Source: Malacoraja senta
Taxonomy: Eukaryota
Direction of reading: 5' to 3'
Assembly: GCA_038087875.1 (NCBI GenBank)
Contig: CM075990.1
Coordinates: forward strand, 6,884,001 to 6,948,000
Length of the DNA stretch: 64,000 bases
In this document: positions 63 to 62,559 of the stretch, piece after piece
Numbering within the stretch: the first letter of the stretch is position 1
Layout of the letters: the number at the start of each line of letters is the position of its first letter
The notes under the pieces: generated by a model
What the model was told of the DNA's origin: nothing
What the model saw: only the letters and a program-made list of their open reading frames with translations
Database searches by the model: none
Translations under genes and position numbers: made by a program

Positions 63-262
63 NNNNNNNNNNNNNNNNNNNNNNNNNNNNNNNNNNNNNN
101 NNNNNNNNNNNNNNNNNNNNNNNNNNNNNNNNNNNNNNNNNNNNNNNNNNNNNNNNNNNNNNNNNNNNNNNNNNNNNNNNNNNNNNNNNNNNNNNNNNNN
201 NNNNNNNNNNNNNNNNNNNNNNNNNNNNNNNNNNNNNNNNNNNNNNNNNNNNNNNNNNNNNN
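63..262. other. Assembly gap (200 N)
   Basis: Run of N in the sequence. Confidence 0.99.
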
Positions 263-510: not shown

Positions 511-1805
511 CTGTTGAAAGGGAGATAAGAGTTGAGCAGGAATCTCGATCCGATACCATCTACTTACAAGCGCTCGGAGCGGTAGCTGTGAGCGCCGTGG
601 TAAAGGTGCACAATCATTCACGGAGTAGAACTACAATCCCTTCAATTAATCACACTGATTCTTTCAGCGGCACGTCGGAGAACTGCTGTAGAAGACAGAA
701 CGTAGTGGAGCAGGGCACCATTAAAGTGTTGACAAAGACATAACGCTGGAGTCAAAACAGGACAAGTAAGTTAAAAGTGAAATGCAGTATCATTAATCTT
801 AGCTTAGCTAGTCAGTGACCTCGGCAAGAAGGTTAAACCCTTTCACTAAAGAAAGGGGGTTGAATAGATTAGATGACAACTCTCCCCCGCAGAAAATTAA
901 TGTTTTAATGGCCGATTGGATAGATATTCCAATATCAATACCGTTGCCATTAATAGGCTCATATGTCTCAACTCACTGCCTTATCCTCCTGCGGTTAAAG
1001 GTCAGTGGGAATTAGTTACATGCTTCAAATACAAAGTGCAAGACCAATGCCGGGCCGAATCATAAATAAAGCAATCGCCAATGGCTCAGGTAGTCCATGC
1101 AGAACTAAAGCATGATGCAGTGTTAGAATTAGCCTCCTACTGTTATTGAAGAATCTCTATCAGAAGGAAATATTAGCGTTTCAATCACACTCATGGTGGA
1201 GTAGCACTGCTGATAAAGCTGCTACCTCATTGTTAGAGATCCGGGTTCAAACCTGACTTCGGGGCATGTCTGTGCGGAGTTTGCATGTTCTCCCTGTGAC
1301 CGCGTGGGTTTCCTTCAGGTGCCCCGGCTTTCCTCCCACGTCCCAAAGACGTGCGGGTTTGGAGGCTAATTGGCCTCTGTAAATTACCCCTAGTGTGTAG
1401 GGAGTGGATGAGAAAGTGGGATAACATGCAACTTGTGTGAATGGGTGATGGATGGTCGGGGTGGGCTGAAGGGCCTGTTTCCACGCAGTTTTACTCAACT
1501 AACTAAAATTCTGATCAGAAGTCATCAACTTTAAATGTTAGCTTTGTTTCTCTCTCCACAGATGCTGCCTGACCTGCTGAGTATTATGAAGATTTTCTGA
1601 TTTTGTTTAATGGGGTTTCTTGAATTGTCTTCGCTCCTTCCTTGGAAAAAGGTTTATTAATTTCACAAGAGGTTAGACACAAAAAGCTGGAGTAACTCAG
1701 CGGGACAGGCAGCATCTCCGGAAAGAAGGAATGGATGACGTTTCGGGTCAAAACCGATCTTCAGACACAATTTCACAAGACACTGGTTGCTGTTCAGCCA
1801 CTCAC

Positions 1806-6300: not shown

Positions 6301-6667
6301 TGTCCCAGGCACTCACCACCCTCTGTGTAAAAAAAAAACTTGCCCTGCTATCCCCTTTAAACTAAGTCTCTCACTTTAAAGTATGCCCTCTAGTATTGGA
6401 TTGTTTTTCAAAAATACGTTTCCACTGCCTCAAATGAAATTAGATTTCTAAAATTGTAATTATTACTGTACGACACAAATACACCTGTGTCAAACGCAAC
6501 TTAAACACATCTATTAAGCTTAAAAGGATGGGTTTGAAAAAGAGGCGCCTCTTACTGCAACAATTATCCACACAGACTCTATGCTGTGGAGACAGATTAT
6601 AAATTGTCCTTAACAGCCAGGAAGGCCATGCCAGTACACTGGTGACTTGCTAAACATCAGCCCCTAC

Positions 6668-6845
6668 CATCTGTCACAAAGCTGTAGTCCTTGGACATGG
6701 TAGCAGAGGTGGTTGCCATGGAGTTGTCAGGATATTCATCCAGTTTCCAGTGTAAGCTGTCGGCGTGAATGGGCCCCAGTTGGTTTCCATTGCCAGGACC
6801 TCCAGCTGCCGTCTGATGTCCCCTCTCAAGAACGAGCCGCACCAC
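6668..6845 (-). CDS. FRMPD2: Exon, end of PDZ2 and linker (VVRLVLERG...KDYSFVTD)
   Basis: cttccag acceptor, gtaggg donor, 178 nt, phase 0/1. Confidence 0.9.
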
Positions 6846-8254
6846 CTGGAAGACAGGGAGCGGTGGAGGGACAACATTTGTAGGAAGGAACTGCAGATGC
6901 TGGTTTAAATCAAAGGTAGACACAAAATGCTGGAGTAACTCGGCGGGACAAGCAGCATCTCTGGAGAGAAGGAATGGGTGACGTTACGGGTCGTGACCCT
7001 TCTTCAGACTGACAGAGTGGTGATGGGAATTGTCCGCAAGCCAGCGGCGCAAGAAGGTAAATGTCGCCACATCAGCCCTCCTCACATCCCCTCGCTTCTC
7101 TGAGTAAAAACACAAAGTGCTGGAGCAACTCGGCGGCTCAGGCAGCATCTGCGGAGGGAATGGGTAGATGTGGCGTATCTGGTCAGGACCCTTCTTCAGA
7201 CTCTCGAAGTGTCACCTGTCCATTCCCTCCACAGATGCTGCCTGACACACTTGAGTTACTCCAGTGCTTTGAGTTTGACTCAATATTCCAGCATCTGCAG
7301 TTCCTTGTGTCATCCCTGCATGATATGTAGTTGAAAATCGACAATGGGAAACAGATACAAGTGTAGTGTGCAGGAAGGAACTGCAGATGCTGGTTTACAT
7401 GGAAGATGGACACTAAAGGCTGGGGTAACTCGGCGGGACAGGCAGCATCTCTGGAGAGAAGGAATGGGTGACGTTTCAGGTTGAGACCCTTCTGCAGACT
7501 GTACATGTGGTCCTTGTTTACAGTGAAACCTGAAATGATGTGTAGATTATGACAGGTGCTTGCTGCAAATTTCTGCAGTCTGCACATTATGTGGACAAAG
7601 GAATCGGCCTTTTCCCAGTTGACCCTTTCTCCGGTTGTAGAGATAACCCTGACAATATAAATTATTTTGTGATTTCATGGGGTCGTTCACAAATGTTCAT
7701 GTGGGATCATCGGCTGACACCCACCTAATACATCTCACTCCTGACATTTGAATAAGTTAGACAGCATCAGGATCGGGGCCAAATTCCTTCCATTTATCAT
7801 TAGGTCTTGAGGGAAATCCGATTCATGTAGGTTTTTGTTTCAGAAATAGTGGAATTAATATTAATGGAGTAACATTGGAATATTTTCTTTCTTTTTTTCT
7901 GTGATGGGGATATTTTCTGAAGTTGGTGCAGTTGGAAAGGGCACGGACTTCACGAGAGGAGAGTTTTGGACGCAGAAGGTTCCTCTTGGAGCCAGCTGCG
8001 CTTCACAAAGACCGCAGGCTTAATTGAAAGGTTATCTGGCAGATCGGACACCCACAGAGCTGGGGGGAGGCAGTCCACGAGCAAAACCGCTGCGTCACAA
8101 CGTGAAAGGTATCATCAGCCTTTCACACACAACGTGAAGCTTCCCTGATCAAATTGCCGATCAGCTGCTTTAAATTTCCCAGTGTGAAAGAACATTCGCT
8201 TAACCCAGACCATATCACACCGATCCAATATCACAGACATAGACCGACACATTA

Positions 8255-8637
8255 TCATTGAAACATATAAGATTGTTAAGGGCTTGGACACACTAGAGGC
8301 AGGAAACATGTTCCCGATGTTGGGGGAGTCCAGAACCAGGGGCCACACAGTTTAAGAATAAGGGGTAAGCCATTTAGAACGGAGACGAGGAAACACTTTT
8401 TCTCACAGAGTGGTGAGTGTGTGAAATTCTCTGCCTCAGAGGGCGGTGGAGGCAGGTTCTCTGGATGCTTTCAAGAGAGAGCTAGATAGGGCCCTTAAAG
8501 ATAGCGGAGTTAGGGGATGTGGGGAGAAGGCAGGAACAGGGTACTGATTGGGGATGATCAGCCATGATCACATTGAATGGCAGTGGTGGCTCGAAGGGCC
8601 GAATGGCCTACTGCTGCACCTATTGTCTATTGTCTAT
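8255..8637 (+). mobile_element. CR1 LINE 3' fragment
   Basis: ETYKIVKG...FPMLGESRTRGH end of ORF2, 3' UTR, and (TATTGTC) tail. Confidence 0.85.
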
Positions 8638-9339
8638 TACTGGCTTTAACAGTTCCCAGCACAATCACACTGTCTAGGACATATCAGCTTAACATTCTGC
8701 ACATTGCCAGCATCTACAGTGGCTCAGTCTTCACATTGACTCCACCAGTAGTTACTAACACAGTTATCAAAGCTGTGGGTTCAATTCATAAAATTGTAAC
8801 AACTCTTCCACTTTCAGCCTCAACTATTTTCCATAATTCTGCAGTCCATAAATGTGACATTATCACCCTTGTACAGTTTTAGCAAGAGTTGCATATATTT
8901 CTACTCCACTCCTTTGCAATAAAGACCAGCGAACATTTGTCCACTTGTATCAGTAAAACGTTTGCCTGTTGACTGAACTCAACCACATCCCTTTGAGAGA
9001 CAAAAAGGAACTGCAGGAATCTTGAACCCAAATCAAAGTGCTGGAGTAACTGAGTGGGTCAGACAGCATCTGCGGAGGAAATGGACAGGCAGTGTTTTGG
9101 GTTGGGAGAGTTCTTCTTCATAAGTTCATAAGTACTAGGAGTAGAATCAGGCCATTCGGCCCACCAAGTCTACTGTGCCATTCAATCATGGCGGATCGAT
9201 CATTACCTCTCAAACCCATTCTCCTGCCTTCTTCCCATAACCCCTGACATTCGGACTATCTAAGGTAGGTTCCAAACCCGAAATATTGCCTATCCATTTC
9301 CTCCACAGGTGCTGCCTGACCTGTTCATTTTGTATTTTA

Positions 9340-10425: not shown

Positions 10426-11499
10426 CGATTTAGGGATGGAAGTCCAAGGTTTGAACCAAAAAGGTTAGCAATCAGAAGTGGGGTGAAGCAAATTAAGGAT
10501 ACATGGCACTCAGGATTAGTGGAGGAATGTCGGGATGGAGGGGATTACATGGAATGAGATAAAAGATCTGGTAAATTCCATCAAAAGATTAAAACAAACA
10601 CCTCATGCTGTCATAATAGCAGTAGGCAGCCAATATTGCAATCCTTTCTAATAGTTATCCAAATGTCTGGTGTCACATTTCCAGTTTATTCAATATATGA
10701 AAGATCCACCATTATCAACAATACTTAATCATGTGTTTGAATCACGATGATATACCAATGTATGCAAATTTATGCATGATAACTCACTTAGGGTTTATTT
10801 TAAACACGGAATTATATTATAAAAGTCATTAATATTTAGCAATTTGCCACAGTCATGTGAAATAAACATCAAATTTTACATATAGACTAAAAATCATGGG
10901 TCTATTTCCTTGTTTAGTAAGTAGCAAGAGCAAGGTTGAGATTTAAATACTGTAAAACGCTATTTGGTTGGATAATTTGGAAGTTCAAAGCTGCCTTATA
11001 TTCATAAGGAGCTCAGATTAGTATTCAGTAGTTAGGATATGCATATTTAATATGCAAATTTAATAGAATTAACCCATAATTTAATGGAAAACCATGGGAC
11101 AAAACATAAAATGATTTACAACAGGCTTTCGGTATCAGTCGGTGATGGATTTCATTTAATTTTGGATGGATATTTCTGCTCATGGAAATGGATCGAAACC
11201 CCTGGTGATTAAGTGAATGTTTCAGCCTGTCTGTGATGGATGTCAGTCAGACACCAGGGCACATGCCAAGGGCAATAAACAGCAAAGCTTTGCATGTGCA
11301 GTGAGGTTTCCTGTTATAAAGAGCGTTGGATAATTGCACTATTATTGTTAGTTTCTTATGTGTACGTATGTGTGCATGTGTGTGTATGTATATAAATATA
11401 TATATATTATATATATGAGGCTAAATATATATTATATATATATGAGGCTAAATATATATTATATATATTATATATATGAGGCTAAATGCAAATGAGGAA

Positions 11500-11835
11500 C
11501 AGTTACTCATATTTTGCTTGGGCAGCTTACAGCCCAGTGGTAAGAATTAACTTGAAGTAACCCCGGCATTCCCTCTCTCTCCAGCCCTACCCCACCCGTC
11601 ACACCAGCTTCTCGTTCTAACCCAGCAAACAGCTAACAACGGCCAGTTTCCTTTATCGTCGTTATTTTTTTTGCATATCTTTCATTCATTGTTCTTTATC
11701 TCTCCACATCACCGTCTATATCTCTCGTTTCCCTTTCCTCTGACTAGTCTGAAGGTCCCAGCCCGAAACGTCACCCATTTCTTCTCTTCAGAGATGCTGC
11801 CTGTCCCGCAGAGTTACTCCAGCATTTTGTGTCTA
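11500..11835 (+). mobile_element. Penelope-like element 3' end with degenerate hammerhead unit
   Basis: LIFCLGSLQPSG end of ORF, pyrimidine-rich UTR, then CTGAAG...CCCGAAACGTC. Confidence 0.7.
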
Positions 11836-12389
11836 TATCGTTTATCTCAATCCATATATTGTGTATATATATATATTTACAGGCTCTCTTGACACGTCTG
11901 GCCACAACGGTGGGCAGTGCTGAACTGCCGCGCGAAAACAAAACCGCGCGAAAACAAGCAGCCCCTCCCGAGTCACGTGACCGCGGCTTCCGAATGCCGG
12001 GTTCGATACCTGCGTGCGCCAGCAGGAGCCGCTACAATATTATATATATATATATATAGACACAATATATGGATTGAGATAAACGATCTGGTAAATTCCA
12101 GATTTGGTATATATAACTATATAGACACAAAAAGCTGGAGTAACTCAGCGGGACAGGCAGCATCTCTGGAGAAAAGGAATGGGAGACGTTTTAGGTCAAG
12201 ACCGAAATATACGTATATGCGAGTATGTGTACTGAACTATTTTTAAATTTATTATATTGTTTACAGTGTACTATGATTACATATTTCGTTGTGCTGCTGC
12301 AAGAATTTCATTGTTCTATCTGGGACATATGACAATAAAATGCTCTTGACTCTTGATGAGGTTTAAACAGGCCTTGTAAACACAACACC

Positions 12390-16094: not shown

Positions 16095-16919
16095 CTGTCA
16101 ACGAGATCACAAAGTAACAATGGAGATTTATCTGTCAGATCAAACCATTATCTGATGGGCCAAATGGCCTGATTCTACTCCTATTAGTCTCTGATTTGCT
16201 ATATTCCCTCTATAATCCACAACGGGCTGTTAATAATTAACTTTCATATTAACAATTCAAAGACAGAACGCTGTGGAGGACAAGTCAATGGATCTTTTTC
16301 AGGCAGGGATAGATACAATTTTGATTAGTACGGGTGTCAGAAGTTATGGGAGAAGGCAGGAGAATGTGGTTGGAGGGAAAGATAGATCAGCCATGATTGA
16401 ACGGTGGAGTAGACTTGGGCTCCTCCTCCGCCTTTTTTCCTTTTTCCCTTTCTTCTCCCCACTCCCTATCAGTTTGAAGAAGGGTTTCGGCCCGAAACGT
16501 TGCCTATTTCCTCCGCTCCATAGATGCTGCTGCACCCGCTGAGTTTCTCCAGCATTTTCTGTGTACCGGTGGAGTAGACTTGATGGGCCGAATGGCATAA
16601 TTCTTCTCCTATCATTTACGAACCTATGAGATTGAGGATGAAGACGGCTTGGAGTTGTTTAGTTTGGCCCAGCTGTCAAGGCTGAATCAGAAGATCATAG
16701 GTTCAAGCTGGAGTGAAACACATGGCACTGTTGGGGGTACGGTCACTAGGATAAGTCTTCTATCCCAACGCCCTGCCCTCTCGGTTGCTTATGTATTATA
16801 ACACAGAAGGTTGCAATTCAGCCAGCTGATTCATGCTAACTCCTTGGGTGCAGCTCTATCAGTCCCGATTCCACCCATCTGATTTCCCTGTAATGTAATT
16901 ATGTATTTATTTTTGTTTG

Positions 16920-24779: not shown

Positions 24780-25445
24780 CCAATATATGGTGTGAGGGAG
24801 GGTTAGGATGGAGGCTCCCATATCATAGATGGATCCAGGGTGATGGGGTTCGATGGGAAGATGGAGCAGACGTGGTAGGGGGAGGGGAGTGTTTTGAGAC
24901 TGAGGATGGCAGATAGAAACATAAGGAAACAAAATTGGGCAGATGGAGCCAGGTGGAGTGAGGAAAGGGAGAAGGTAGTGACCGGGGCTGGAATGGGGCA
25001 TGTGGACCAGATATAGCAGGGATGATGGGCAGAATGAAAGAGGTGGGGGGGGGAAGGTAGTAAATCCAGGTGCCAGTGGGTGAGGAGGTGGGGAATGTAT
25101 AAGGTGTACAAAGGGAGAGAGAACATAGATGGAGTGGGAAAAGAAGACATGGTGTAGATGACCTGAAATTGGAAAGTTCAATGTTCATCCCATTGGGTTG
25201 TAGGCTATCTATGTGGAATATGAGGTGCTGTTCTCTTAGTTTGCAACCTGCCATGCCCTGGCAGTGGAGAAGGCCAAGGACTGACAGGCCGGGTGTGGGA
25301 ATGGGTAGGGGAGTTAAATGACATGCGACCAGATGCCCAAAACATCAACCATCCCTTTTCCCTCCACAGATGCTGCTTGACTTGCTGAATTCCTCCAGCA
25401 GTTTTTTTTTGCTCCAGATTTCAGCATCTGCAGTCTCTTGTGTGC
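24780..25445 (-). mobile_element. Degraded Penelope-like 3' fragment
   Basis: REQHLIFHIDSLQPNGMNIELSNFR endonuclease-end motif, pyrimidine-rich UTR, and an adjacent inverted terminal unit. Confidence 0.65.
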
Positions 25446-27552: not shown

Positions 27553-27817
27553 GCCGCAGACATTATTCATGCTGTCTCCATACACATATATTAGATATTG
27601 CCTCCAGCATAACAATAACAACCTATAATTTGTACTTTATCGCAGCTATTCAATGGTACACCTGCAACCGCTTGAGCGACTATCTGTGTTACATGATTCA
27701 GTTGGTTGACAAGGTACCCAAACATTTCTCTGTGGCCATTCTTACATGAACCTATGATGGACACAAACAGCTGGAGTGACTCAGGGGTCAAACAGCATCT
27801 CTGGAGAAAAGGAATAG

Positions 27818-27849
27818 GTGACGTTTCGGGTCGAGACCCTTCTTCAGAC
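27818..27849 (-). ncRNA. Minimal hammerhead ribozyme motif (Penelope-associated)
   Basis: Reverse complement GTCTGAAGAAGGGTCTCGACCCGAAACGTCAC; intact core. Confidence 0.7.
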
Positions 27850-27976
27850 TGGGAGTCAAGGGAGAGAGGGGACATGAGAGATATAGACGGCGATGTACAG
27901 AGATATAGAACAAATGAATGAAAAGATATGCAAACAAGTATCGATTCTAAAGGTAACAGCCCAGGAGTAAACCTAC

Positions 27977-30865: not shown

Positions 30866-31051
30866 GTTGAACGTGATCCGTTGCATTTCCCGCCACTGAA
30901 ACCGTAGACTGGCGATCCTCGTGCTGTTCTTCACCTCGTAAACGATGATCCCTTTGGCACAGATTCCCAACGCCATGTCCTCCCCTGCAACCTTCTTCTC
31001 CCGAGACACTCGGTGGAAGAGCACCCCGTACTCTGGGAGCTGCTGGGTGAC
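30866..31051 (-). CDS. FRMPD2: Exon, FERM ([15 protein letters not shown]...[14 protein letters not shown])
   Basis: ttgcag acceptor, gtaagt donor, 186 nt, phase 0/0, LPEYG motif. Confidence 0.94.
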
Positions 31052-31160
31052 CTGCAATGTATCGTTCAATGCACCGACAGTTAGCATTTCATTCCAACTT
31101 CCCTTCGTTTTCACACCTTACCCTTCCATATCTCAGTGTCTCTCTCGCCCCTGACTCTCA

Positions 31161-31192
31161 GTCTGAAGAAGGGTCTCGACCCGAAACGTCAC
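31161..31192 (+). ncRNA. Minimal hammerhead ribozyme motif (Penelope-associated)
   Basis: GT-CTGAAGA-A-GGGT(CTCG)ACCC-GAAA-C-GTC-AC. Confidence 0.7.
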
Positions 31193-32354
31193 CCATTCCT
31201 TCTCTCCCAGAGATGCTGCCTGTCCCGCTGAGTTACTCCACCATTTTGTGTCTATTTTCCTTCACACCCTCGGCATGTCCGACAGAACCTCATTTAATCC
31301 CCATTATCCACATTCAGTCACAATCATTACCTGGGCGGGGGAGCAGTCCACAAGCAGCAACGATTCACCTAATCATCTAATCCCTAATGGTGCTTGTGGA
31401 GAGGTCAGTCTCAACCAATACATTGAATACTCCGGTCCTAATAACACAAGGTGGTGGAATATGTATGGGAATTTCAGAGAGCTGACGGCTCTAGAAGGCT
31501 GGAACTTACAGCGAGTGGTAACTGCACACATGTACTCAATACATAGCTTTGTCCATGAATATTATGCAATCATGAACATAGTCTATTATGGCACAGGAAG
31601 AGGCTCTTTGGCCCACAATATTTGAGTCGGATATGATCTCAGGACTAACTGTTCTCTGACTGCTCATAATTCATATCCCTGCATTCCCTGAATTTCCATA
31701 TGCCTGTTCTAAAGTGTCTTAAGAGTCATAGAGTCATACAGTGTGGAAACAGGCCCATCGGCCCTACTTGGCCACTCCAACCAACACGCCCCATCTATCC
31801 TAGTCCCACCTGCCTGTATTTGGCCCATATCTCTCCAACCCTATCCTATCCATAATACGTGTCTAAATGTTTCTTAAACACTCTTAAATGTCACTATCAT
31901 ATCTGCCTCCATTGGTTCAGTTTAGTTTATTATACACGTGAAAAGCTTTTGTTGCGGAAAGACAATACGTGATTACCAATCTCGGGCAGTGCGTTCCAGG
32001 CACTCACCACCCTCTGTGTAAACAACCTTGGCCCCTCACATCCCCTATCAACTTTGCCCCTCTCACCTTAAAGCTGCGCCCTCTAGTGTTTGATATTTCC
32101 ATCCTGGGAGAAGGGTTCTGACTGTCTCCTCGAGCTCTGCCTGCATAATGTGATATACTTCTCTCAGGTCTCCCTGCAACCTCCAGCATTCCAGAGAAAA
32201 CAACGCAAGTCCGTCCACCCTGGTTGCATCAGACTCAGTCAAAGGGGAGTAGATGGACACACGCATGGAGATAGAGCAGGTGAAGATATCTGATGGGATT
32301 GCTCTGCCCACTGCTGGTATACACAGGGCGAGCTGATCTCATTCTGTGCCACTG

Positions 32355-35035: not shown

Positions 35036-38000
35036 GGTACCTCATAACAGTTCAGTGTGCGAATGAGAAACTCCTGCCATGAACATCAAACTAGATGCCA
35101 ACCTTGTCTCACAAAGTAGCACACATCAGAATGTAGACAAAAAAAGCTGGAGCAACTCAACTGGACAGGCAGCATCCTGGGAGAGTAGGAATCAGGTCGA
35201 GACCCTTCTTCAGACAACAGGTCGGGAGTTTCAATCGACGTCTCAAGAACTGAAAATATAATCCAGCTGGTTTGTAGGTTAGTTACCTTAAATTGAAGAA
35301 TTCAATGTACATAGTGTTGGGTTGTAAGCCACCAAGTGGAATATGAGGTGTTGTTCCTCCAGTTTGCGTGTGGCCTCACTCTGACAATGGAGGAGGCCCA
35401 GGACACAAAAGTCAGTATAGGAGTAGGAAAGTTAGCAAACGGGAGATCCAGCAGACCACGTTGGACCAGTGCAAGTGTTCGACTAAATAGTTGCCAAGTC
35501 TATCGCATTTTCTCTTCTCTCCTTGCAAGCTGAAATGCCAATTGTCCCAGACAGGTACAGCTTCTTTCCAAGTATCCTTGCAGCTGGTGGAATCTAATTC
35601 CCTGTGCAGAGCCAATCACCCCAGAAGGCGTAATTGGGTTTGCTCATAGTGTCGTGCGTCACACTGAGAGGCTCCAATGTGTTCCGCTTCAATTGCAAAC
35701 TGGCTCTTTAGAGTGCAGCAACATTCATTCTGTACAACACATTCATCTGGTTTGAGTCACCTTTGGTTTTTGCCTCAATCGTGTCGCATGCAGGAAAATT
35801 GTCCATGATGATTCACTGGGCATCCTGGCTACTTTCAACAATATCTCGACAATGGAGGGATTTGGGTTATGTTTAGGTACAAGGTCTTGAAACCATGTCC
35901 GACACAAGTCTAGTGGGCAGATGAGCCTGTTCTTGTGCTAGTACTGTTCTATGTTCTACAATGTTTCGGATCGGAACACTTCTTCAGACTGATGAAATAG
36001 GGGAGGAGAAAGCTGGAAATGAGAGGTGAGTGTGAGACAAAGCCTGGCAAGTGATAGGTGGATACAGGTTAGGAAGAGATCGCCAGATGGGTGGTGTAAG
36101 TGACAATGGCTAGAGGTGAAAATAAGACAAAAGGGTGTCCGAATCTATCCGATTCACATATCACAAACCAGTAGTTTCACGCTCACAATTACTGTTTTCT
36201 TCCAGGTCCATTCAATTATTTAATTTGAACCTTTCACGTTTCCATAGTGGGATCAAACCCATGATAAGTTCATGTTCTTAAGTGATAGGAGCAGAATTAG
36301 GACATTCGGCCCATCAAGTCTACTTCGCCATTCAATCATGGCTGATCTTTCTCTCCCTCCCAACCCATTCTCCTGCCTTCTCCCCATAACCCCTGACACC
36401 CCTGATCTCTGATCTATAGAGTGTCCCAGATTATAGGCAGGGATTTGAACATCGCTAGATCGATGATATGGCCCCAGGATTTTCACCAGTTACTGTTACC
36501 TTGAGCTTACTCACAAGCTTTTTCGGAAGCTCTTCGAATTCAAAGCCTAGTTTTGAAACCCCAGCATTCCATCAGAGTGCCTTTGATTACAATCGATTGG
36601 GCACAACAGGCTCTGTCTACACTTAGCAATCAGTAAAGTCCAAAGCCAGGCAGGAAGCTGTGCTGTGCCTGAATTGGAACATTGCCCTCAATTATCTTGC
36701 AGCTCAGGCATTCAAACCTTGTTTGGGAGGCTGAACAAGATGCCACGGCTCCACGCTTAAAAAAAGCAATGGAATTCTGCAGAAAACCTGACCACAAACT
36801 ATCTCTCAATCACCACAGCAGTGTAGCTGCTCATTGATTTCACGGCTGTGTGTGGGCTTGTGATGAGTTTTCAAACAAGAGTCGTTTGCATTTTGCTGCC
36901 CTGCACAGAGCTATCAGGGAAAGGATTTATACATCGTGCCAATAATGTCCTTGTGCCAACCCGGAGGAGCGTTAACAGCCAATGCAGTACTTTTGAGCTC
37001 CGTGTATTGTTTTCCTGCAGTGGACAACGTGCACAACATCCATTGACAATAATGATGAGATGATCTGCATTTTATTAGCCATCACGGTTAAGAATGAACA
37101 AATACAACTAGGAGATGTAATAAAGGGTATCAAAAAGTCAGGTATTAAAGTGAATGTTACTGGAATGGGGGAGGGGGGGGGGGTAGTGGGAGGGGGGGGG
37201 GAGGAGATGAGTGAGCTGCTGGGCTGATGAAAAGAGAAGTCAAATGCGGGGACATTAAAATTGTGACTGAATGCTTCGATGGGTAGTGGGTTGCCATAGC
37301 GATGCACACAGGAAGTGGAACACAATTAGTCCATTCTCCTGACTAGCCGAGATACTCCTGCTCTTTGTGTTATTTTTTTGAAAACCAGCATCTTGTGTCT
37401 AGGCCAGTCGCCTCCTCCTCCTGAAGTAGGGATCTCCAGAAATCACAGGAAAAATGTGGAAAGTTTGCAACAGGGAGCTTTACGCCTGAGGCAAAGAATA
37501 GATGAGAAATAATAACTTAGCGAGACGGGACTTTTACCACACAATGGGTAAGTAGAACGAGGTTGTTAAAGCAGGTACGTTAACAACATTTAATAGGCAT
37601 TTAGACAGGTACACAGAAAGGAAAGATTTAGTGGGATATGGACTAAATGCGGGCAGGTGGGACTAGTGTAGATGGGGCATCTTGGTTGGCATGGGCAAGT
37701 TGTGCCGAAGGGCTTGTTTCTCTAATGTCTGACTGTGAGGGGGGAGGGGAAGAACAATGGACAATGGGGCGGGGGATAAAGGACAATGGTGACCAGGCGT
37801 GGGGGAACCGCTGTGGTGGTGGGGGGGGGGAGGGGGGACGAAGGGGGGAGCCGTCGTGCTTTGTAACTTTGTCAGCGCTGTAGGTGGCTGATATCTGTAA
37901 ACATTGTGTATGCAAGCAAAGAATCCCACTGTGCCTAGTCACTTGTGACAATGAAGTATTCCTATTCCTACTATGTTATTTTATTAGTTAGTGCTACAGA

Positions 38001-39395
38001 GTGGAAACAGGCCCTTCGGATCACCTAGTCTGCGCTAATCAACAATCACCACGTACCCAACTAGTTTAAGCCTACACTCTAGAGACAATTTACAGAAGCC
38101 AATTAACCTACAAACCTGCATCTCTTTGGAACGTGGGAGGAAACCCACACAGTCACAGGGATGTCTTCAAGAGTCTGACAACCGCGGAGAAGAGATGGGG
38201 CTAGATTGCGTGATGGACTGGGCTACATTCACAGCTCTCTGCAATTTCTGGCAGTTTTGAACAGAGCAGTTGCCATACCAAGCTGCGATGCATCGAAATT
38301 TGAGGCTTATTATAGAGTTGCTGTAGAAATCGGTACGAGTCTTTGGAGACATGTCAAAATTCCTTCGTCTTCTCAGGAAGTAGAGGCGTTGGTGTGCTTT
38401 CTTGGCTGTCGTTGGGGGCAGAATTTGTGGGGGAGTTGATGGGAATGAGGTGACAACAAAATTAGATTAAAGTAGGATTGTTGAAAATGGGTGCCGAATT
38501 GTTGATATGGAATGGATGGATCTGTATCTGTATTGTGTCTGTCCATGAATTCATATATAATGCCCTTGTAAATTATTCTCCCCAAATCCCCATTAATTCT
38601 CCCCGGATTCTGCCACTCAGTGACAAACACTGAGAGGAAACTAGAGCATTCATGGCAAACCAACATGAGTAGAGGAAAGAAAATGACACAAAGTGCTGGA
38701 GTAACTCAGCTGGTCAGGCGGTATCTCTGGAGAATGTGATAGGTGATGTTTTGGGTCACCCGAAACATGAACTGAAGAAGAGTCCTGGCCCGAATTGTCA
38801 CCTATCCATGATCGCCAGACGTTGCCTAACCTGCTGAGTTACTCCAACACTTTGTCCCTATTTTTGCAAGCCAGCATCTGCAGTTCCTTGTTTCTATGTG
38901 GTTACAGGGAGAACATGCAAACTCCACACGGACTGCACCCGAGGCCAGGATTAAACCTGATTTGTTGAGGCTTTGGGGCAGTAGATCTTCCTCCTGCAGC
39001 ACTGCAAGACTGAACAGTAGGAGACACACAGAAACCTCAACTATAACACAATCATGTAAGATCCCCCTAATGTTTGGTGTCCTTGCAATGGACAAGCTTT
39101 ATGGATCAAGATGCCAAAGAACTACATTGATATCAAATGTGTAGGAAAAAACTGCAGATGCTAGTTTAAACTGAAGATAGACACAAAATTCTGGAGTAAC
39201 TCAGCGGGACAGGCAGCATCTTTGGAGAGAAGGAATGGGTTTCGGGTCGAGATCCTTCTCCAGACTGATGTGATGATATCAAATTTGATGATATCAAATG
39301 TTGGTTTCAAGGCCAATGTCTACACTCAATGAATGACCACGAGGGAGAAATGCGAAGACCCCATGTTGGTGACTGCATTTTTTTTCGCTACTCAC

Positions 39396-48325: not shown

Positions 48326-48877
48326 GGTTGGGAATAATCTACCAGAACCCGTCTATCATCGTGGCAAGGTTTAATCTCAAGTTCCAACGTGTAGGTCACT
48401 CCAGTGATGGATTTCCTAGTTCCATTTGCATGAAGAATGGGCCCAAACTGGAAAGTCTTCTGTCCATTTTCCTCCACTTGTAACCAATCCAAATGTGCAT
48501 GTCATTAGGAATCTTAGCACTTACCTCACATATTAAAGCTTTCTTCAATCTTTGCATCTATGTAGATCACCAGCATAATCAAGGATGCGTCTCACCCTGG
48601 TCATTCCCCCTCTCCCCTCTCCCCTCTCCCATCAGGCAAGAGGTAGAGGTTAAGGCTAATGGAATCAAGGGATATGGGGAGAAAGCAGGAACAGGGTGCT
48701 GATTTTGGATGATCATACTGAATGGCGGTGCTCGCTCAAAAGGCTGAATGGCCTACTCCTGCACCTATTTTCTATGTTTCTATGTTTCTAGGTAGAGAAG
48801 TGTGAAATCGCATATCTCCAGATTCAGGGACGGTTTCATCCCAGCTGTGATCGGTCAACTGAACCATCCTATCACCA

Positions 48878-49365
48878 TAGAAACATAGAAACATAGAAAC
48901 TAGGTGCAGGAGGAGGCCATTCGGCCCTTCGAGCCAGCACCGCCATTCATTGTGATCATGGCTGATCGGCCCCTATCAATAACCCGTGCCTGCCTTCTCC
49001 CCATATCCCTCGACTCCACTAGCCCCTAGAGCTCTATCTAACTCTCTCTTAAATCCATCCAGTGACTTGGCCTCCACTGCCCTCTGTGGCAGGGAATTCC
49101 ATAAATTCACAACTCTCTGGGTGAAAACGTTTTTTCTCACCTCAGTCTTAAATGACCTCCCCTTTATTCTAAGTCTGTGGCCCCTGCTTCTGGACTCGCC
49201 CAACATTGGGAACATTTTTCCTGCATCTAGCTTGTCCAGTCCTTTTATAATTTTATATGTTTCTATAAGATCCCCCCTCATCCTTCTGAACTCCAGTGAA
49301 TACAAGCCTAGTCTTTTCAATCTTTCCTCATATGACAGTCCCGCGATCCCAGGGATCAATCTCGC
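48878..49365 (-). mobile_element. CR1 LINE 3' fragment
   Basis: ORF 48976-49359 and (TTTCTATG)n tail. Confidence 0.9.
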
Positions 49366-52849: not shown

Positions 52850-53682
52850 CTTCACAAATGGAAACAGCAAGTTACGCCCAACTCCGTCAATAGCATCAAC
52901 TTACCGCTACAAGAGTTTTTTAATTCTTGATTAGATCGGGTGTCAAGGATTATGGGGAGAAGGCAGGAAAATGGGATTCAGAGGCAGAGATCAGACATGA
53001 TTGAATGGCGGAGTAGACTCGATGGGCCGAATGGCCTAATTCTACTCTTATAATTTGTGAAATTGTGAAGCACTGCCCTGGCGTTACAATTCTATCCATC
53101 TAAGTGTGAATAAGAACAAAGATGTATTTTATGAATGACCTTGAAACAGTGATTCGTCACCATTATGAATCTTGAAGATTAGACTATCTGATTAATTCTG
53201 TATTCATTCATGAATTGCCTCTTTAGTAACTCGCATAATCCAAATCAAGATGATTCTTGCCTTTTGTAAATTAATAAAATGCTGCATTGATGTATTACTT
53301 TTGATGTAAACCAAAGTGCTTTCCAACTAGTGATATGGTTTTTGAAATCTAGTCACCTCTGGATGGCATGGAATGCATAATATGGACACAGTGATGCAGT
53401 GAATACACAAATGTGGTTAAGCAATGGGTCGCTCAGAACATTGCAAATTCAAAAGCAAAATCTAATGGAATATGCATATTTGAAAATTTTGCAAATTGAG
53501 GCATCAGAGACATAATCTGTAGAGAGAGAAATAGCGCCATGTCAAGTCATGAGGGAACTCGATGATCTGACCTGAAGTGTAGGAAGGAACTGCAGATGCT
53601 GGTTTAAACCGTAGACACAAAATGCTGGAGTAACTCAGCGGGACAGGCAGCATCTCTGGAGAGAAGGAATGGGTGACGTTTC

Positions 53683-53718
53683 GGGTCTGAAGAAGGGTCT
53701 CGACCCGAAACGTCACCC
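53683..53718 (+). ncRNA. Hammerhead motif at the centre of an inverted Penelope-derived pair
   Basis: GGGT-CTGAAGA-A-GGGTCTCGACCC-GAAAC-GTC-ACCC. Confidence 0.7.
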
Positions 53719-55793
53719 ATTCCTTCTCTCCAGAGATGCTGCCTGTCTTGCTGAGTTACTCCAGGTTTTTGTGTCTACCTGACGTTAAGTATGTTTCTTC
53801 ACAGAGGATGCACAATGTGCTGGTTATATCCAACACTTTCTCTTTTTATGCCAACATTTTATATTTAACATGCTTCCTTATTGCACAGGAGGCCATATCA
53901 GCCCATTGTGTCATGTTCCTCATGTTGGTTTACTGACCACTATTTTTCCCATATTCCAACTTCTGCCAGATTCTACCACTCACTTATACATTCGGGGCAA
54001 TATGCAGTGGCTAATTCGCCTACCAGCCCGTACGTCTTTGGAACGTGGGAAGAAACCAGAGCACCCGGAGGAAACCCACACGATCAAAGGGAGATCGTGC
54101 AGACTCCACGCAGAAAGCTCCGGAGGTCAAGTTTGTAAGTTAATAAATTGCAGGAACAGAATTAGCCATTCGGCACACCAAGTCTACTCCACATTTCAAT
54201 CATGGCTGATCTATCTCTCCCTCTCAACCCCATTCTCCTGCCTTCTCCCCATAACCCCTGACACCCTTACAGCTCAAGATTGAACAAGGCTCACTGGAGC
54301 TGTAAAGGCAACATATCTACCTGCTACCCCACTGTCCTCACCTTTAAATTAGGGCCATGAAACCTTTTATAAGCAGCTGATGGCTTAACATTTGTTCCAG
54401 CTGACAGCCTTTTCAACATTACGTTGCCTAGACACTGAACTGGGAGGGAAAGCCTAGATTGTATGTTCAAGTTTCCATAATGAGACCAACTTCTGTTTGC
54501 ATGCTACAACTTAAATCAAATGACATTCTGCAACATTAATAAAATACTGACAAAATCCTGGAGTAAATTAGAACAAATAACCTAAATAACAGAATGAACT
54601 GAAGTTCAATGCGGATTACGAAAATTCACCAGGAGGATGAACGTATTAATTACTTTGTGGTCTAAAATAGTGATAACAAAATTCTACGTGAGTAAACTCT
54701 TTAACGTAACAAGATAAGGTGTTACACGCCAGTGCATTCAGACAAGATTTAACAGCGATGCCTGATGAAATATTTGGAGAGTTAATTAAATGTCTTAATG
54801 GAAGTGGTGATATTTAAGCAGAGAATTACAGAATTTAGGAGCTGGACAAGGGAAGGCATCAGCTGCCAATGATGCAGCGTTGGATATCAGGGTTGCTCAA
54901 GGAACCAAAGCAGAAAAATCAGAGGCTGATCTGGAGAGATGTGGATTATATGCAGGCAGATAAGAGTCGGGCTTGGCATCGTGTTTGGTATGGACATTGT
55001 GGGCTGAAGGGCCTGTTCTTGTGCTGTACTGTTCACTGATCTCTGTTCTATGATGCAAGCATATAGCAAAAGACAATTGACACTATTTTTCCCCCTCAAA
55101 AGGGGTGGCACGGCAGGCAGGGGTAGAGCTGCTGCCTCACCGCGCCAGAGACCCAGGATCGATCCTGACCATGAGTGCTGTCTGTATGGAGTTTGCACGT
55201 TCTCCCTGTGACTGCGTGAGTTTCCTGCGGATGCTCCAGTTTCCTCCCACGCTCATAGTTCGTACAGGTTTATAAGGTCATAAGGTCAAAAAGGAGCAGA
55301 ATTAGGCCATTTGGCCCATCAAGTCTACCCCTCCATTCAATCATGGCTGATCTATCTCTCCCTCCTAACCCCATTCTCCTGCCTTCTCCCCATAACCTCT
55401 GACATCCGTACTAATCAAGAATCTATCCATCTCTGCCTTAAAAATATCCACTGACTTGGCCTCCACAGCCTTCTGTGGCAAAGAATTCCACTTTGTAGGT
55501 TAATTTGCATCGGTAAAATTTCTCAATTGCCCCTAGTGTGTAGGATAGTGCTAGTTCACGGAGTGACCGCTGGTCAGCGCGTACTCAGTGGGCCACAGTG
55601 CCTATTTCTGCGCAGTATCTCCAAAGTCTAAATTCCAAACACTGGAATACGCTGGTAAATGATATTCATATATTTACTCTCGACTTATTATAACCTAAAA
55701 ATAAATAATTCTCACGCAGGAAGATGGCAGCAGCATTAGCTGTTAATTCCTTTCAAGGGCCAGTCAAGGGACAGAAATGGCAATGAGTGTCCT

Positions 55794-55843: not shown

Positions 55844-57191
55844 CATCACAGGCTGAGAAAGTCCACCTTGATAAACCAGGAGCTGTGAACTCATCCACAA
55901 GAACTCAATGAGGCTCTTGGTCTGTTGATTGCCCTTGAAGTTTCAGTTCTGACTCCAGTGCATGCTGCAAGAGGTGATCTCCAGACAGTGTGTGAATCAT
56001 GTAACAGAACATGGGACCTGATGGTTTGGCCATCTATCCTGTCAGACCAAGAAAAGGTGCTGGTATTTTGCCTGCACTTCCTCACTAAAATGCTCTTCCC
56101 AGCGTCGCACTGACAATCTGAGCTTCATGAAGCTCAATCTCAAGGTGAGTTTAAAAGAGATGTGCGTGGCAAGTTCCTTTACACAGAGGGTGGTGAGTGC
56201 CTGGAACGCACTGCTGGGGGTGGCGGTTGAGGCAGAGACGATAGCGGCATATACGGGACTTTTGGATAGGCAGGTAGATATACAGGGAATGGAGCGATCT
56301 GGATTCTACGCAGGCAGCTAAGATTTTGTCTTGGCATCATGTTAGGTATAGAATGTAGGCCAAACAACCTGCTTGTGTGCTATACCGTTCTATGTCCTAT
56401 GATCTTTAGTCAGAGGGAGGTGAATCTGTGGAATTCTTGGCCATGGAGGCCGTCGGTGGATATTTTTAACGCAGAGATTGATAGATTCTTGATTAGTACG
56501 GGTGTCAGAACTTATGGGGAGAAGGCAGGGGAATAGGGTTAGGTGGGAGAGCCACGGTAGAGTAGACTTGATGGGCCGAATGGCCTAATTCTACAATTCC
56601 TTATGACCTTATGATCAAGCAAATGGCAAAAGGCAACGGACTGGAATAAGCTGGTAGATAATGGTCACGTGTTTACTCTGTGGAACCTAAAAAGTTACAA
56701 ACCAGAACAACGGCTTCCCCATCACCCAGCTCCACATACAATAATTACCAAATACCACCCTTATCATCTACCCCCGAACTCTGGACGTAACCTTGAGCCT
56801 CTTTACTATCCTCAGCATGCATGAAGATTATATTCCTCTTTCTCTCACATTTGTCAGTCACTGGTCCCTGGAGCTCCAACACACACCCATTGTCTCAGCC
56901 TTTCCCTCCACTCCCATAACAGTAGGGCCCACCCCACATCCATTACCAGGCAGCCTATTCCCTTGTGTTGTACCCCAGAATATTTAGTTCTCCACCTTCA
57001 CATCTCAGTAACATCTACTGGGTCTAGTTCGGTTTTAGTGTAGGAAGGAACTGCAGATGCTGGTTAAACCGAAGGTAGACACAAAAAGCTGGAGTAACTC
57101 AGCGGGACAGGCAGCATCTCTGCAGAGAAGGAATGGGTGACGTTTTGGGTCGAGTCCCTTCTTCAGACTGAAGTCTATCTTTAGTTTTAGT

Positions 57192-58140: not shown

Positions 58141-58444
58141 AATATTTAATATCCCCAGCCTGCACGGTAAATATATTGATCTGCATTTTTGTTATTATTA
58201 CAAGTATGTCAGCTTTCAGAGACAAAAAGACTATTGTAAACACTATACTATGTCCCCTGATTATGACCTTAGCTGCCGAAGCAATTATACTGTTGATAAT
58301 CCGGCTTTGAATTGTCTCTTCAGTCGTGTAACTTTACCCTTAACTGAACCCGTCGCACACCCTCTAACTTCATCTACTGCATCCGATGTTCCTGACGTGG
58401 CCTTCTATACATCGGCGACACCAAGCATAGACTCGCCGACTGTT

Positions 58445-59130
58445 CAGATTATTATCTGAATGGTGTCAGATTAAGAAAAGGGGAGGTGCAACGAGACCTG
58501 GGTGTCCTTGTACATCAGCCACTGAAAGGAAGCAAGCAGGTACAGCAGGCAGTGAAGAAAGCGAATGGCATGTCGGTCTTCATAGCGAGAGGATTTGAGT
58601 ATCGGAGCAAGGAGGTCCTACTGCAGTTGTACAGGGCCCTGGTGTGACCACACCTGGAGTATTGCAGCGTGGGTTCACCAGGTTGTGATATGATGAAATA
58701 ATGGATCGACTCGGCTTATATTCACTGGAATTTAGAAAGATGAGAAGGGATCTTATGGAAACAGGGATCTTAATGGACAGGCTAGATGCAGGAAAAATGT
58801 TCCCGATGTTGCGGGAGTCTAGAACCAGGCGTCACAGTTTAGGAATAAGGAATAGGCTATTTAGAACTGAGATGAGGAAAAACATTTTCACCCGGAGAGT
58901 TGTGAATCGGTGGAATTCTCTGCCACAAAGGCCAGTGGAGGCCAATTCACTGGATGTTTTCAAGAGGGAGTTAGATATAGCTCTTAAGGTTAATGGAATC
59001 AAGGGATATGGGGAGAAAGCAGGAATGGGGTACTGATTTTGGATGATCAGCCATGATCATATCGAATGGGGGTGCTGGCTCGAGGTGCCGAATGGCCGAC
59101 TCCTGCACCGATTTTCTACGTTTCTATGTT
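58445..59130 (+). mobile_element. CR1 LINE 3' fragment with internal deletions
   Basis: DYYLNGVRL...; ORF 58701-59036. Confidence 0.88.
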
Positions 59131-59340
59131 TCTGAACATTTGTGCTCGATCCGCCAAGGCCTTTTGGATCTCCCGGTTGCTAATCATTTTAACTCCTCTC
59201 CCCATTTCCATACTGACTTTTCTAGCCTGGACCTCCTCCATTGCCAGAATGAGACCACATGTGAACTGGAAGAACAGCACCTCATATTCCACCAGGGTAG
59301 CATGTAGCAGACTGAGCATTGAAGTCTCCAATTTTAGGTG
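59131..59340 (+). mobile_element. Penelope-like GIY-YIG endonuclease C-terminal fragment
   Basis: EHLCSIRQGLLDLPVANHFNS...LEEQHLIF. Confidence 0.75.
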
Positions 59341-61790: not shown

Positions 61791-62485
61791 GGATGACGTT
61801 TCGGGTCGAGACCCTTCTTCAGACTGATGTCAGGGGAGTGGGCGGTACAGAGATAGAATGTAGTCGGAGACAGTAAGACTGGTGGGAGAACTGGGAAGAG
61901 GGAGGGGATGGAGAGAGAGAGGGAAAGCTAGGACTACTTGAAGTTAGAGAAGTCAATGTTCATACCGCTGGGGTGTAAGCTGCCCAAGCAAAATATGAGG
62001 TGCTGATCATCCAATTTGCGCTGGGCCTCACTCTGACAATGGAGGAGGCCCAGGACAGAAAGGTCAGATTGGGAATGGGAGGGGAAGTTAAAGTGCTGAG
62101 CAACCGGGAGATCAGGTAGGTTTAGGCGGACTGAGCAGAGGTATTCAGCAAAACAATCGCCGAGCCTGCGCTTGGTCTCGACACCTGGAACAGCTGATTC
62201 AGTAGATGAGGTTGGAGGAGGTGCAAGTGAACCTCTGCCTCACCTGGAAAGACTGTTGGGGTCTTTGAACGGAGTCGATGGGGGTGGTAAAGGGACAGGT
62301 GTTGCATCTCTTGCGGTTGCTGGGGAAAGTAGCTGGGGAAGGGTGGTTTGGGTCGGAAGGGACAAGTTGACCAGGGAGTAGCGGAGGGAACGGTCTCTGT
62401 GGAAAGCAGAAAGGGGTGGAGATGGGAAGATGTGGCTAGTAGTGGGAGCCTGGTGGAGGTGGCAAAAATGTCAGAGGATTATATG
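61791..62485 (-). mobile_element. Penelope-like element 3' part: endonuclease end, UTR and hammerhead
   Basis: Reverse strand encodes ...FAEYLCSVRLNLPDLPVAQHFN...QHLIFCLGSLHPSGMNIDFSNFK*, followed about 110 nt later by CTGAAGAAGGGTCTCGACCCGAAACGTC (61794-61824). Confidence 0.82.
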
Positions 62486-62559
62486 CTGTTACTGGGGGAG
62501 TGGATTGGGGTTCTGATAGAGGGATGGCTGGAGGATAGCTATGGAAGGGAGAATATCAT

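What the first reader, a model, noticed from the sequence alone, without database searches (positions are those of the whole stretch)
31161..31192. Highly repeated Penelope-derived unit carrying a minimal hammerhead ribozyme core
Seen: a ~100-170 bp unit (AGTCTGAAGAAGGGTCTCGACCCGAAACGTCACCCATTCC...GATGCTGCC...GAGTTACTCCAGC) recurs more than 30 times by eye on both strands. Cores are intact at 31161-31192 (+), 53683-53718 (+), 27818-27849 (-) and 61794-61824 (-). The motif parses as CUGAAGA, one extra A, stem II GGGU-CUCG-ACCC, GAAA, a vestigial palindromic stem III (ACGU), a GUC cleavage triplet and a short stem I. At 61791-62485 it sits just downstream of a Penelope GIY-YIG endonuclease end. 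Established: Penelope-like elements carry minimal type I hammerheads that generally need dimerisation. Inference: this is a very high-copy, largely non-autonomous, ribozyme-bearing retroelement family in this lineage.
Basis: partly seen in the sequence, partly recalled or inferred. Interest (0 to 1): 0.7.

Follow-up and report, generated by a model that had tools for sequence, protein, structure and literature searches.

The report
Skate Penelope ends carrying minimal hammerheads
The repeat is the short, mostly dead end-piece of a Penelope-type jumping gene of a skate and carries a known kind of tiny self-cutting RNA motif; the only unusual points are its great density and that most copies begin exactly at the edge of that motif.

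Summary
Observation confirmed: 52 hits in 42 insertion units across 64 kb, controls 0, all within a skate FRMPD2 gene. The motif fits the published minimal hammerhead (min-HHR) consensus of Penelope-like elements (PLEs) and lies 115 nt behind a Neptune-type GIY-YIG end. Helix I is only 2 bp but covaries against a distant Neptune family; subfamily changes avoid core and stems (0 of 22 versus 8 of 19 columns). The copies are 5'-truncated PLE insertions: two 3' end sites about 35 nt apart (the PLE 'tail') and head-to-head pairs. A separate non-autonomous family is not shown. Only 11 of 32 copies keep all catalytic boxes, the active fold is not predicted, no copy starts at the cleavage site, and there is no strand bias in the host gene. 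Unexplained: 22 of 32 copies start 0-6 nt before CUGA, and the same junction is the best-supported one in 4 of 4 public runs. The scan had noted the same kind on other shark DNA. New member of a known kind; cleavage untested.

The parts
31161..31192 (+). Minimal type I hammerhead motif of the finding (helix I 2 bp, CUGAAGA, extra A, stem II 4 bp with 4-nt loop, GAAA, palindromic ACGU, GUC; predicted cut 31190/31191)
   Evidence: consensus in PMC4209133 Fig. S3
31128..31260 (+). Whole insertion of the finding: about 35 nt of PLE 3' UTR, motif, downstream unit ending at the first 3' end site; antisense, in a FRMPD2 intron about 100 nt from an exon
61934..62488 (-). Broken C-terminal part of a Neptune-type PLE ORF (thumb end, CX2-5CxxC linker with first Cys changed, GIY-YIG endonuclease with frameshifts, stops and a deletion through the YIG motif)
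61794..61933 (-). 3' UTR and exact-match motif (61794-61824) of that PLE fragment; the unit is cut off a few bases after the cleavage site
27747..27957 (-). Copy with about 110 nt of 3' UTR and exact-match motif (27818-27849); sense to FRMPD2; used as reference for laying public runs
53578..53786 (.). Head-to-head inverted pair joined inside the motif; left arm carries the tail, right arm (exact core, C3 = 53687) ends at the first site
11494..11838 (+). Second endonuclease end + 3' UTR + motif (with a short deletion in the core) + downstream unit: links the unit to the PLE ORF
57039..57170 (-). Short copy running from the motif's 5' edge to the second 3' end site (with tail)
1668..1766 (-). 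Short copy starting 2 nt before C3, flanked by an exact 12-bp target-site duplication
39140..39267 (-). Short copy with tail and a 12-14 bp flanking duplication; cleavage triplet deleted
16470..16578 (+). Second subfamily: GUU triplet, U.G pairs in helix I and stem II
30866..31057 (-). Host context: FERM_C exon of FRMPD2 (97% to the thorny skate protein)

Best explanation
The unit is the pseudo-LTR end of skate Neptune-clade Penelope-like retrotransposons. The element's RT-endonuclease nicks the DNA and starts reverse transcription at one of two internal sites, about 65 and about 100 nt 3' of the hammerhead cut site (the 35 nt between them is the PLE 'tail'). It copies an uncleaved RNA through the motif and most often ends at the motif's 5' edge, leaving 95-135 bp dead-on-arrival insertions; priming on both strands gives head-to-head pairs with the tail on one arm. 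In the parent elements the motif is a real min-HHR kept by selection, which most likely cuts only as a dimer (ACGU pairs with ACGU of a second copy) and with help from the element's protein. The scattered copies decay neutrally and are nearly all inactive. Shown: the repeat, its link to the endonuclease, the end clusters, the covariation. Inferred: priming mechanism and protein help (by analogy with the anole PLE), the stop at the 5' edge. Not tested: cleavage.
For: Motif 115 nt behind a Neptune-type endonuclease end, and again behind one at 11547; 10 of 32 motif-spanning copies keep UTR-like sequence upstream (two weak 10-nt matches reclassed by hand). 3' ends: 18 of 52 at columns 92-103, 13 of 52 at 127-134, 6 between, 15 shorter; 6 of 7 inverted units have the tail on exactly one arm, as described for PLEs (PMC8557442 passages; PMC11167929 parts 1-2). 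No hit of 52 starts at columns 27-43 (cut after column 33), in line with unprocessed RNA being the substrate in the anole element. Descriptor: 10 matches versus shuffle mean 0.21, all in this family. A metagenome scan that fixed only the two boxes and stem II returned 80 distinct matches, 67 followed by R-U-H and 20 lying 32-172 nt behind a homologous endonuclease end; their helix I is mostly A-U/C-G where the skate has U-A/G-C (2 pairs changed on both sides; 0 of 500 shuffles; hand-picked 10 rows). Subfamily changes: 0 of 22 core/stem columns versus 8 of 19 loop/spacer columns, p = 0.0008. Protein-dependent cleavage shown for the anole PLE motif.
Against: No RT or full-length element in the window. 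Helix I is 2 bp (third pair broken in all 4 skate rows); predicted energy of the active fold is -2 to -5 kcal/mol as monomer and -3 to -7 as dimer, against -10 to -21 and -27 to -49 for the best folds. Blocks downstream of the motif are as well conserved as the core (mismatch 0.07-0.10 versus 0.07), so conservation is not special to the ribozyme. The sharp 5' start is not explained by random truncation and is absent from the metagenome family (5 of 58 versus 22 of 32). Target-site duplications are clear in few units (4 of 42 at score 8 or more; permuted mean 0.94, maximum 5). 8 of 9 Xenopus dimer elements did not cleave in vitro (bioRxiv 2026.07.22.740005).
Confidence: 0.62

Rival explanations
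1. The short copies come from a short RNA of their own that starts at the motif's 5' edge (TCAGTCT fits the initiator consensus, recalled, with +1 three bases before C3): a non-autonomous mini-PLE of 100-135 nt mobilised in trans by Neptune protein.
For: 22 of 32 copies start 0-6 nt before C3; loose ends with unrelated flank (agreement 0.32-0.35) at 27848-27851 are the best-supported ones of that kind in 4 of 4 runs from 3 coded organisms, and 12 of 15 listed joints start at 27849-27851; an exact 12-bp duplication abuts position -2 at 1668-1766. D. virilis Penelope has an internal TATA-less promoter (PMC2377424 passages). Retrozyme monomers derived from pLTRs are described.
Against: Short and long copies share the same subfamily letters; C3-U4 supply two of the initiator letters for free; in D. 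virilis the start lies well upstream of the motif; part of the count at 27851 is other UTR subfamilies, because the reference copy has a private change at 27852; no RNA end data.
Confidence: 0.2
2. The motif descends from a hammerhead but no longer cuts in this lineage; it is kept as a protein-binding or RT-stop signal, held 'off' by a hairpin in which the stem II 5' strand pairs with the bases just after the cut site.
For: 2-bp helix I; stem II probability 0.001-0.15 and helix I about 0 in 5 of 5 folded copies, with the competing hairpin as best fold in 31163, 27847 and 16474; no copies start at the cut; no depletion of sense copies in FRMPD2 introns (27 versus 25, p = 0.89; intact 4 of 17 versus 7 of 15, p = 0.27); motif mutants did not affect insertion in the anole element.
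Against: All catalytic letters and the N-U-H triplet are kept across subfamilies (GUC and GUU) and across lineages; 2-bp helix I motifs are in the published set (Culex, Drosophila, Oikopleura); nearest-neighbour energies ignore tertiary contacts and protein.
Confidence: 0.13
3. The 5' edge is a splice acceptor (pyrimidine tract + CAG) of a PLE intron, and short copies derive from spliced RNA.
For: Upstream UTR is pyrimidine-rich and ends in CAG; the D. virilis intron ends at the 5' end of helix I (PMC4209133).
Against: A spliced RNA would bring a constant first exon, but loose ends share no sequence (agreement 0.32-0.35); most copies keep the AG or CAG that splicing would remove.
Confidence: 0.04
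4. The hammerhead look is chance in an ordinary repeat end.
For: No Rfam hit; folding z-scores near zero.
Against: Matches every consensus feature of PLE min-HHRs, sits where they sit, and covaries across lineages.
Confidence: 0.01

Closest known systems
Minimal hammerheads (min-HHR) in pLTRs of metazoan Penelope-like elements (Cervera and De la Pena 2014, PMC4209133; main text parts 1-2 of 4 and supplement parts 1-2 of 3 read)
   Same: CUGANGA + one extra base, G10.1-C11.1, GAAA, palindromic 15.2-16.2, N-U-H, short helix I, position behind the endonuclease, most copies single and dispersed
   Different: No cartilaginous fish among the 56 motifs of Fig. S3; stem II (4 bp) and helix I (2 bp) at the short end of the range; density far above the 4,000-9,000 motifs per genome given for coelacanth and Xenopus
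Neptune clade PLEs (Arkhipova 2006, recalled; features as given in Craig et al. 2021, PMC8557442, passages read)
   Same: C-terminal GIY-YIG endonuclease with CX2-5CxxC linker, 5' truncation, partial tandems, inverted 5'-truncated copies, 30-40 bp tail at one end
   Different: No full-length element in the window; truncation is concentrated at one point, the motif's 5' edge
PAc, Poseidon element of the green anole (Frangieh et al. 2024, PMC11167929, parts 1-2 of 4 read)
   Same: Two internal RT start sites that define the tail, uncleaved RNA as template, both strands primed, hammerhead upstream of the start sites
   Different: Other clade; its ORF starts in stem II, whereas here the first ATG after the motif meets a stop within 17 codons; cleavage and protein dependence were measured there, not here
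Non-LTR retrozymes (Li, Clavereau, Pollet, bioRxiv 10.64898/2026.07.22.740005, parts 1-3 of 5 read; Cervera and De la Pena 2020, listing only)
   Same: pLTR-derived, non-coding, type I hammerhead, present in one chondrichthyan genome
   Different: Defined as tandem arrays with a complete motif in each unit (chondrichthyan average 363 bp); here 33 of 42 units are single, 7 inverted, 2 two-copy tandems with one broken motif each
Canonical type I hammerheads (Rfam hammerhead families)
   Same: Core letters and topology
   Different: No 6-bp helix I or loop contacts; no Rfam hit

Membership tests
PLE min-HHR | CUGANGA box, one extra base, G10.1-C11.1 opening a helix II, GAAA box | tested here: met
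   against the consensus line of Fig. S3
PLE min-HHR | Palindromic 15.2-16.2 in place of helix III, then N-U-H | tested here: met
   ACGU then C or U; R-U-H follows 67 of 80 related matches where the pattern did not require it
PLE min-HHR | Helix I closing the motif (2-6 bp in the published set) | tested here: met
   2 bp only, both pairs changed on both sides across lineages; third pair broken in the skate
PLE min-HHR | Located in the pLTR behind a PLE endonuclease | tested here: met
   115 nt at 61822, about 200 nt at 11749; 20 of 80 related loci at 32-172 nt
PLE min-HHR | Self-cleavage as dimer or with protein | not testable with these tools
   needs an assay; folding energies do not favour the active form
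Neptune PLE | C-terminal GIY-YIG endonuclease with CX2-5CxxC linker | tested here: met
   broken in this copy (first Cys changed, YIG part deleted), whole in relatives P0002 and P0003; no tree was built
Neptune PLE | Telomerase-like RT in the same ORF | tested here: inconclusive
   no RT in the window; relative P0003 has YIDD and thumb upstream of the same endonuclease
Neptune PLE | 30-40 bp tail at one end; inverted and partial-tandem insertions | tested here: met
   3' ends at columns 92-103 and 127-134; 6 of 7 inverted units with one tailed arm; tandem joints in public runs
Non-LTR retrozyme | Tandem array with a complete hammerhead in at least two consecutive units | tested here: not met
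   2 two-copy tandems in 42 units, each with one missing or broken motif; arrays elsewhere in the genome not examined
Canonical type I hammerhead (Rfam) | Rfam gathering score; long helix I with loop contacts | tested here: not met
SINE | Pol III head (tRNA, 5S or 7SL) ahead of the borrowed 3' end, and a simple-repeat tail | tested here: not met
   short copies start at the motif with unrelated flank and end without a repeat tail; no tRNA scan was run
Separate non-autonomous master element | Own clades and diagnostic changes; own transcript | not tested
   no whole genome held; no RNA ends available

The most novel reading that the evidence does not exclude
In skates the hammerhead has become the 5' boundary of a 100-135 nt mini-element: a short RNA starting at the motif's edge (or an RT that stops there by design) is inserted uncleaved by Neptune protein, on the order of a million times per genome. 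It would be the smallest PLE-driven non-autonomous element and the most abundant ribozyme-derived sequence in a vertebrate genome, with the motif acting as a start or stop mark rather than as a cutter.
Probability: 0.22. Interest if true: 0.6.

Novelty: new member of a known kind. Interest (0 to 1): 0.27.

Why it matters
What PLE hammerheads do is still open (PMC8557442 says their function is unclear; PMC11167929 found cleavage unnecessary for insertion in vitro). Skate genomes hold a very large record of insertion ends for one family: ends at the motif's 5' edge and none at the cut site bear directly on that question and can be counted on any skate assembly. About 8% of this intronic window is this unit, so it is also a major part of skate repeat content. 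The ribozyme-PLE link itself is known since 2014.

Tried and rejected
Rfam at gathering score and at E up to 10: no hammerhead family; the 13 weak hits were miRNA-like hairpins and the like. No whole genome held, so no genome-wide count or tree. Viral contigs: 0 matches. Pfam on the window's three endonuclease pieces: 0 families; the identity rests on homologs. Sequencing runs: no RNA holder listed; X17 and X19 are RNA only by guess and were not used as evidence of expression; summed contig depth is no copy number and is not used as one. Loose ends at 27785 and 27793 come from the reference copy's own changes (their consensus is element sequence) and were set aside. An extra G at the 5' junction (tables 5c and 7) was considered as a cap trace, but inverted arms give the same letter, so it is not counted. 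MFE folding and RNAalifold do not recover the hammerhead (z -0.94 to 0.57). Target-site duplications are not significant as a set. The 4-bp helix I at 53683 was rejected as a junction product. Stem II covariation could not be judged from the metagenome set because my pattern fixed it. Searches of earlier findings by sequence and by place gave nothing. Lunse et al. 2017 is not held; it is cited only through a review's passages. The supplement search of PMC11167929 gave no occurrences. Paper searches for a description of this family in cartilaginous fish found only the retrozyme preprint, whose supplements are closed; Repbase and Dfam could not be searched and may hold the family.

Full report
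Observation. The unit is real. A profile built from five window copies finds 52 hits, 27 on the minus and 25 on the plus strand, covering 4,930 bp, and none in five control sequences. Merged at 60 bp they form 42 units: 33 single, 7 inverted, 2 tandem (one merge probably joins two insertions). Copies differ from the majority by a median of 12% (range 3-33%, 44 copies). A relaxed min-HHR descriptor gives 10 matches, all in this family, against a shuffle mean of 0.21; 6 have a helix I of 2 bp or more against 0.04. Rfam has no hammerhead hit.

Setting. The exon next to the finding is FERM_C, 97% identical to FRMPD2 of the thorny skate; that protein gives 22 hits, all on the minus strand, from 60811 to 409. 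The host is therefore a skate or close relative and the copies are intronic. The stretch 62488-61937 (-) is a broken PLE ORF end: its best relatives are skate and ray proteins, and the ray protein P0003, which has YIDD, thumb, a CX2-5CxxC linker and a GIY-YIG domain, matches at E 8e-36 and over the linker at 53%. That linker marks Neptune and Nematis as against Penelope/Poseidon (PMC8557442 passages); I file it under Neptune on this feature and on its spacing, without a tree. The motif follows 115 nt later; a second endonuclease end at 11494-11547 runs through about 200 nt of UTR into another copy.

Is it a min-HHR? It meets each feature of the consensus in Fig. S3 of Cervera and De la Pena 2014: CUGANGA plus one base, G-C opening helix II, GAAA, a palindromic ACGU in place of helix III, and N-U-H. 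Helix I is only 2 bp, which also occurs in that set (Culex, Drosophila, Oikopleura). The 4-bp helix I at 53683 is a product of the inverted junction there. Two tests go beyond resemblance. First, a metagenome scan with a pattern that fixed only the two boxes and stem II returned 112 loci with 80 distinct matches; 67 of 80 continue with R-U-H, and 20 of 80 lie 32-172 nt behind an endonuclease end homologous to P0003. These loci lack the skate downstream unit; their organism was not determined. Their helix I is A-U in 58 of 66 and C-G in 55 of 66, where the skate has U-A and G-C. On ten hand-picked rows both pairs change on both sides, above 500 of 500 shuffles and all slid controls for percent paired and covariation score, while the third pair is broken in all four skate rows; relatedness inflates such counts, and there are about three independent states. 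Second, within the window, changes shared by 15% or more of copies fall in 0 of 22 non-CpG core and stem columns but in 8 of 19 loop and spacer columns (p = 0.0008), so selection acted on the motif in the parent elements. Against a special status: blocks further downstream are as well conserved (mismatch 0.07-0.10 versus 0.07).

Do the copies cut? Probably not. Only 11 of 32 copies that span the motif keep all boxes; three CpG sites inside it decay, also in the public runs. The active fold is not predicted: -2 to -5 kcal/mol as monomer and -3 to -7 as double hammerhead, against far lower competing folds, with stem II probability 0.15 or less in 5 of 5 copies. Sense and antisense copies are equally common in FRMPD2 (p = 0.89), and intact ones are 4 of 17 sense versus 7 of 15 antisense (p = 0.27). 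This fits the literature: no monomer activity and low dimer activity for a schistosome min-HHR, cleavage only with protein for the anole PLE, 1 of 9 Xenopus dimers active.

How the copies arose. 3' ends cluster at columns 92-103 (18 of 52) and 127-134 (13 of 52), with 6 between and 15 shorter. Two sites about 35 nt apart match the two internal RT start sites that define the PLE tail (PMC11167929), and 6 of 7 inverted units carry the tail on one arm only, the arrangement drawn for PLEs. No hit starts at columns 27-43, around the cut after column 33: the template was uncleaved, as in the anole element. Copies grade from endonuclease + UTR + motif to motif only, which is what 5' truncation gives. 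Target-site duplications are exact in two short copies but weak as a set (4 of 42; permuted mean 0.94, maximum 5).

The unexplained point. Truncation is not spread out. Of 32 copies that reach the 5' box, 22 start within about 6 nt of C3 (12 on unrelated flank, 9 on an inverted arm, 1 on a tandem copy) and 10 keep UTR-like sequence (two weak 10-nt matches reclassed by hand, and three of the 12 are degraded). In the metagenome family only 5 of 58 do so (p = 4e-9; that set was chosen for intact cores and includes redundant assemblies). Laying four public runs from three coded organisms on the 27847 copy gave 140,000 and 152,000 laid contigs for the two large runs; the best-supported loose ends with unrelated flank lie at 27848-27851, 1-4 nt before C3 (X1: 1,042, 1,632, 1,569, 2,313), none is listed at the cut, and 12 of 15 listed joints start at 27849-27851 (738 loose ends and 51 joints were not shown, and the 27851 count includes other UTR subfamilies). 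An RT stop at a folded or protein-bound motif is the simplest reading; a transcript that starts there is the bolder one (the letters fit the initiator consensus, recalled; D. virilis Penelope has an internal promoter but starts well upstream of its motif); a splice acceptor is unlikely because no constant first exon is seen.

Copy number. The window holds 0.66 units per kb. If typical of a genome of about 2-2.5 Gb (size recalled), that is on the order of a million copies and some 10^5 descriptor-intact motifs, against 4,000-9,000 motifs reported for coelacanth and Xenopus. This is an extrapolation from one window.

Novelty. The kind is known since 2014. Six paper searches found no description of this family in cartilaginous fish beyond one chondrichthyan genome in a 2026 retrozyme preprint, but Lunse et al. 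2017, Repbase, Dfam and that preprint's supplements could not be seen. It fails the tandem-array test for retrozymes and has no SINE head. Four earlier notes of this scan report the same kind on shark DNA, one with short copies starting at the motif; they are leads, not support. Verdict: new member of a known kind, interest 0.27, with one testable oddity, the fixed 5' edge.

Noticed in passing
window 409-60811 (-): FRMPD2 gene spans the window: 22 tblastn hits to the thorny skate protein, residues 353-1303.
   Followed up: yes
window 59131-59304 (+), 25162-25413 (-), 35318-35428 (-), 58372-58515 (+): Four more PLE endonuclease fragments; the one at 35318-35428 is followed about 100 nt later by a motif copy, apparently after loss of most of the UTR.
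   Followed up: partly
window 31175-31200 (+) and other copies: The bases just after the cut site repeat the 3' strand of stem II, so the stem II 5' strand has a second partner; this 'off' hairpin is the best fold in three of five folded copies, from two subfamilies. It could be a switch that protein or a second copy opens.
   Followed up: partly
window 57039-57120 (-), unit columns 53-60 and 111-118: Two well-conserved, complementary 8-nt blocks downstream of the motif can close a long stem around the first 3' end site; a candidate binding site for the PLE protein.
   Followed up: partly
window 16474 (+), 6015 (+) versus 31163 (+): The two subfamily forms around the cut site are the two CpG-decay products of one ancestral form; both keep N-U-H and helix I.
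   Followed up: no
window about 61600-61785 (-): A different repeat begins right after the truncated 61822 copy; from recall it resembles the 3' part of a shark/ray tRNA-derived SINE (not tested).
   Followed up: no
P0001, P0002, P0004: Public skate gene models carry this endonuclease end fused to unrelated proteins (a LINE RT, DUF4518, neuromedin-U receptor 1), most likely annotation run-ons into PLE remnants.
   Followed up: no
window 48734-48934: A hairpin-forming stretch with short tandem repeats gives weak MIR530 hits on both strands, below gathering score; probably another inverted repeat pair.
   Followed up: no
L064:551-575 (-): A metagenome locus with the skate-like 5' strand and a full 3-bp helix I, suggesting that the skate's third pair was lost.
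   Followed up: partly
window 63-262: A run of 200 N (assembly gap).
   Followed up: no
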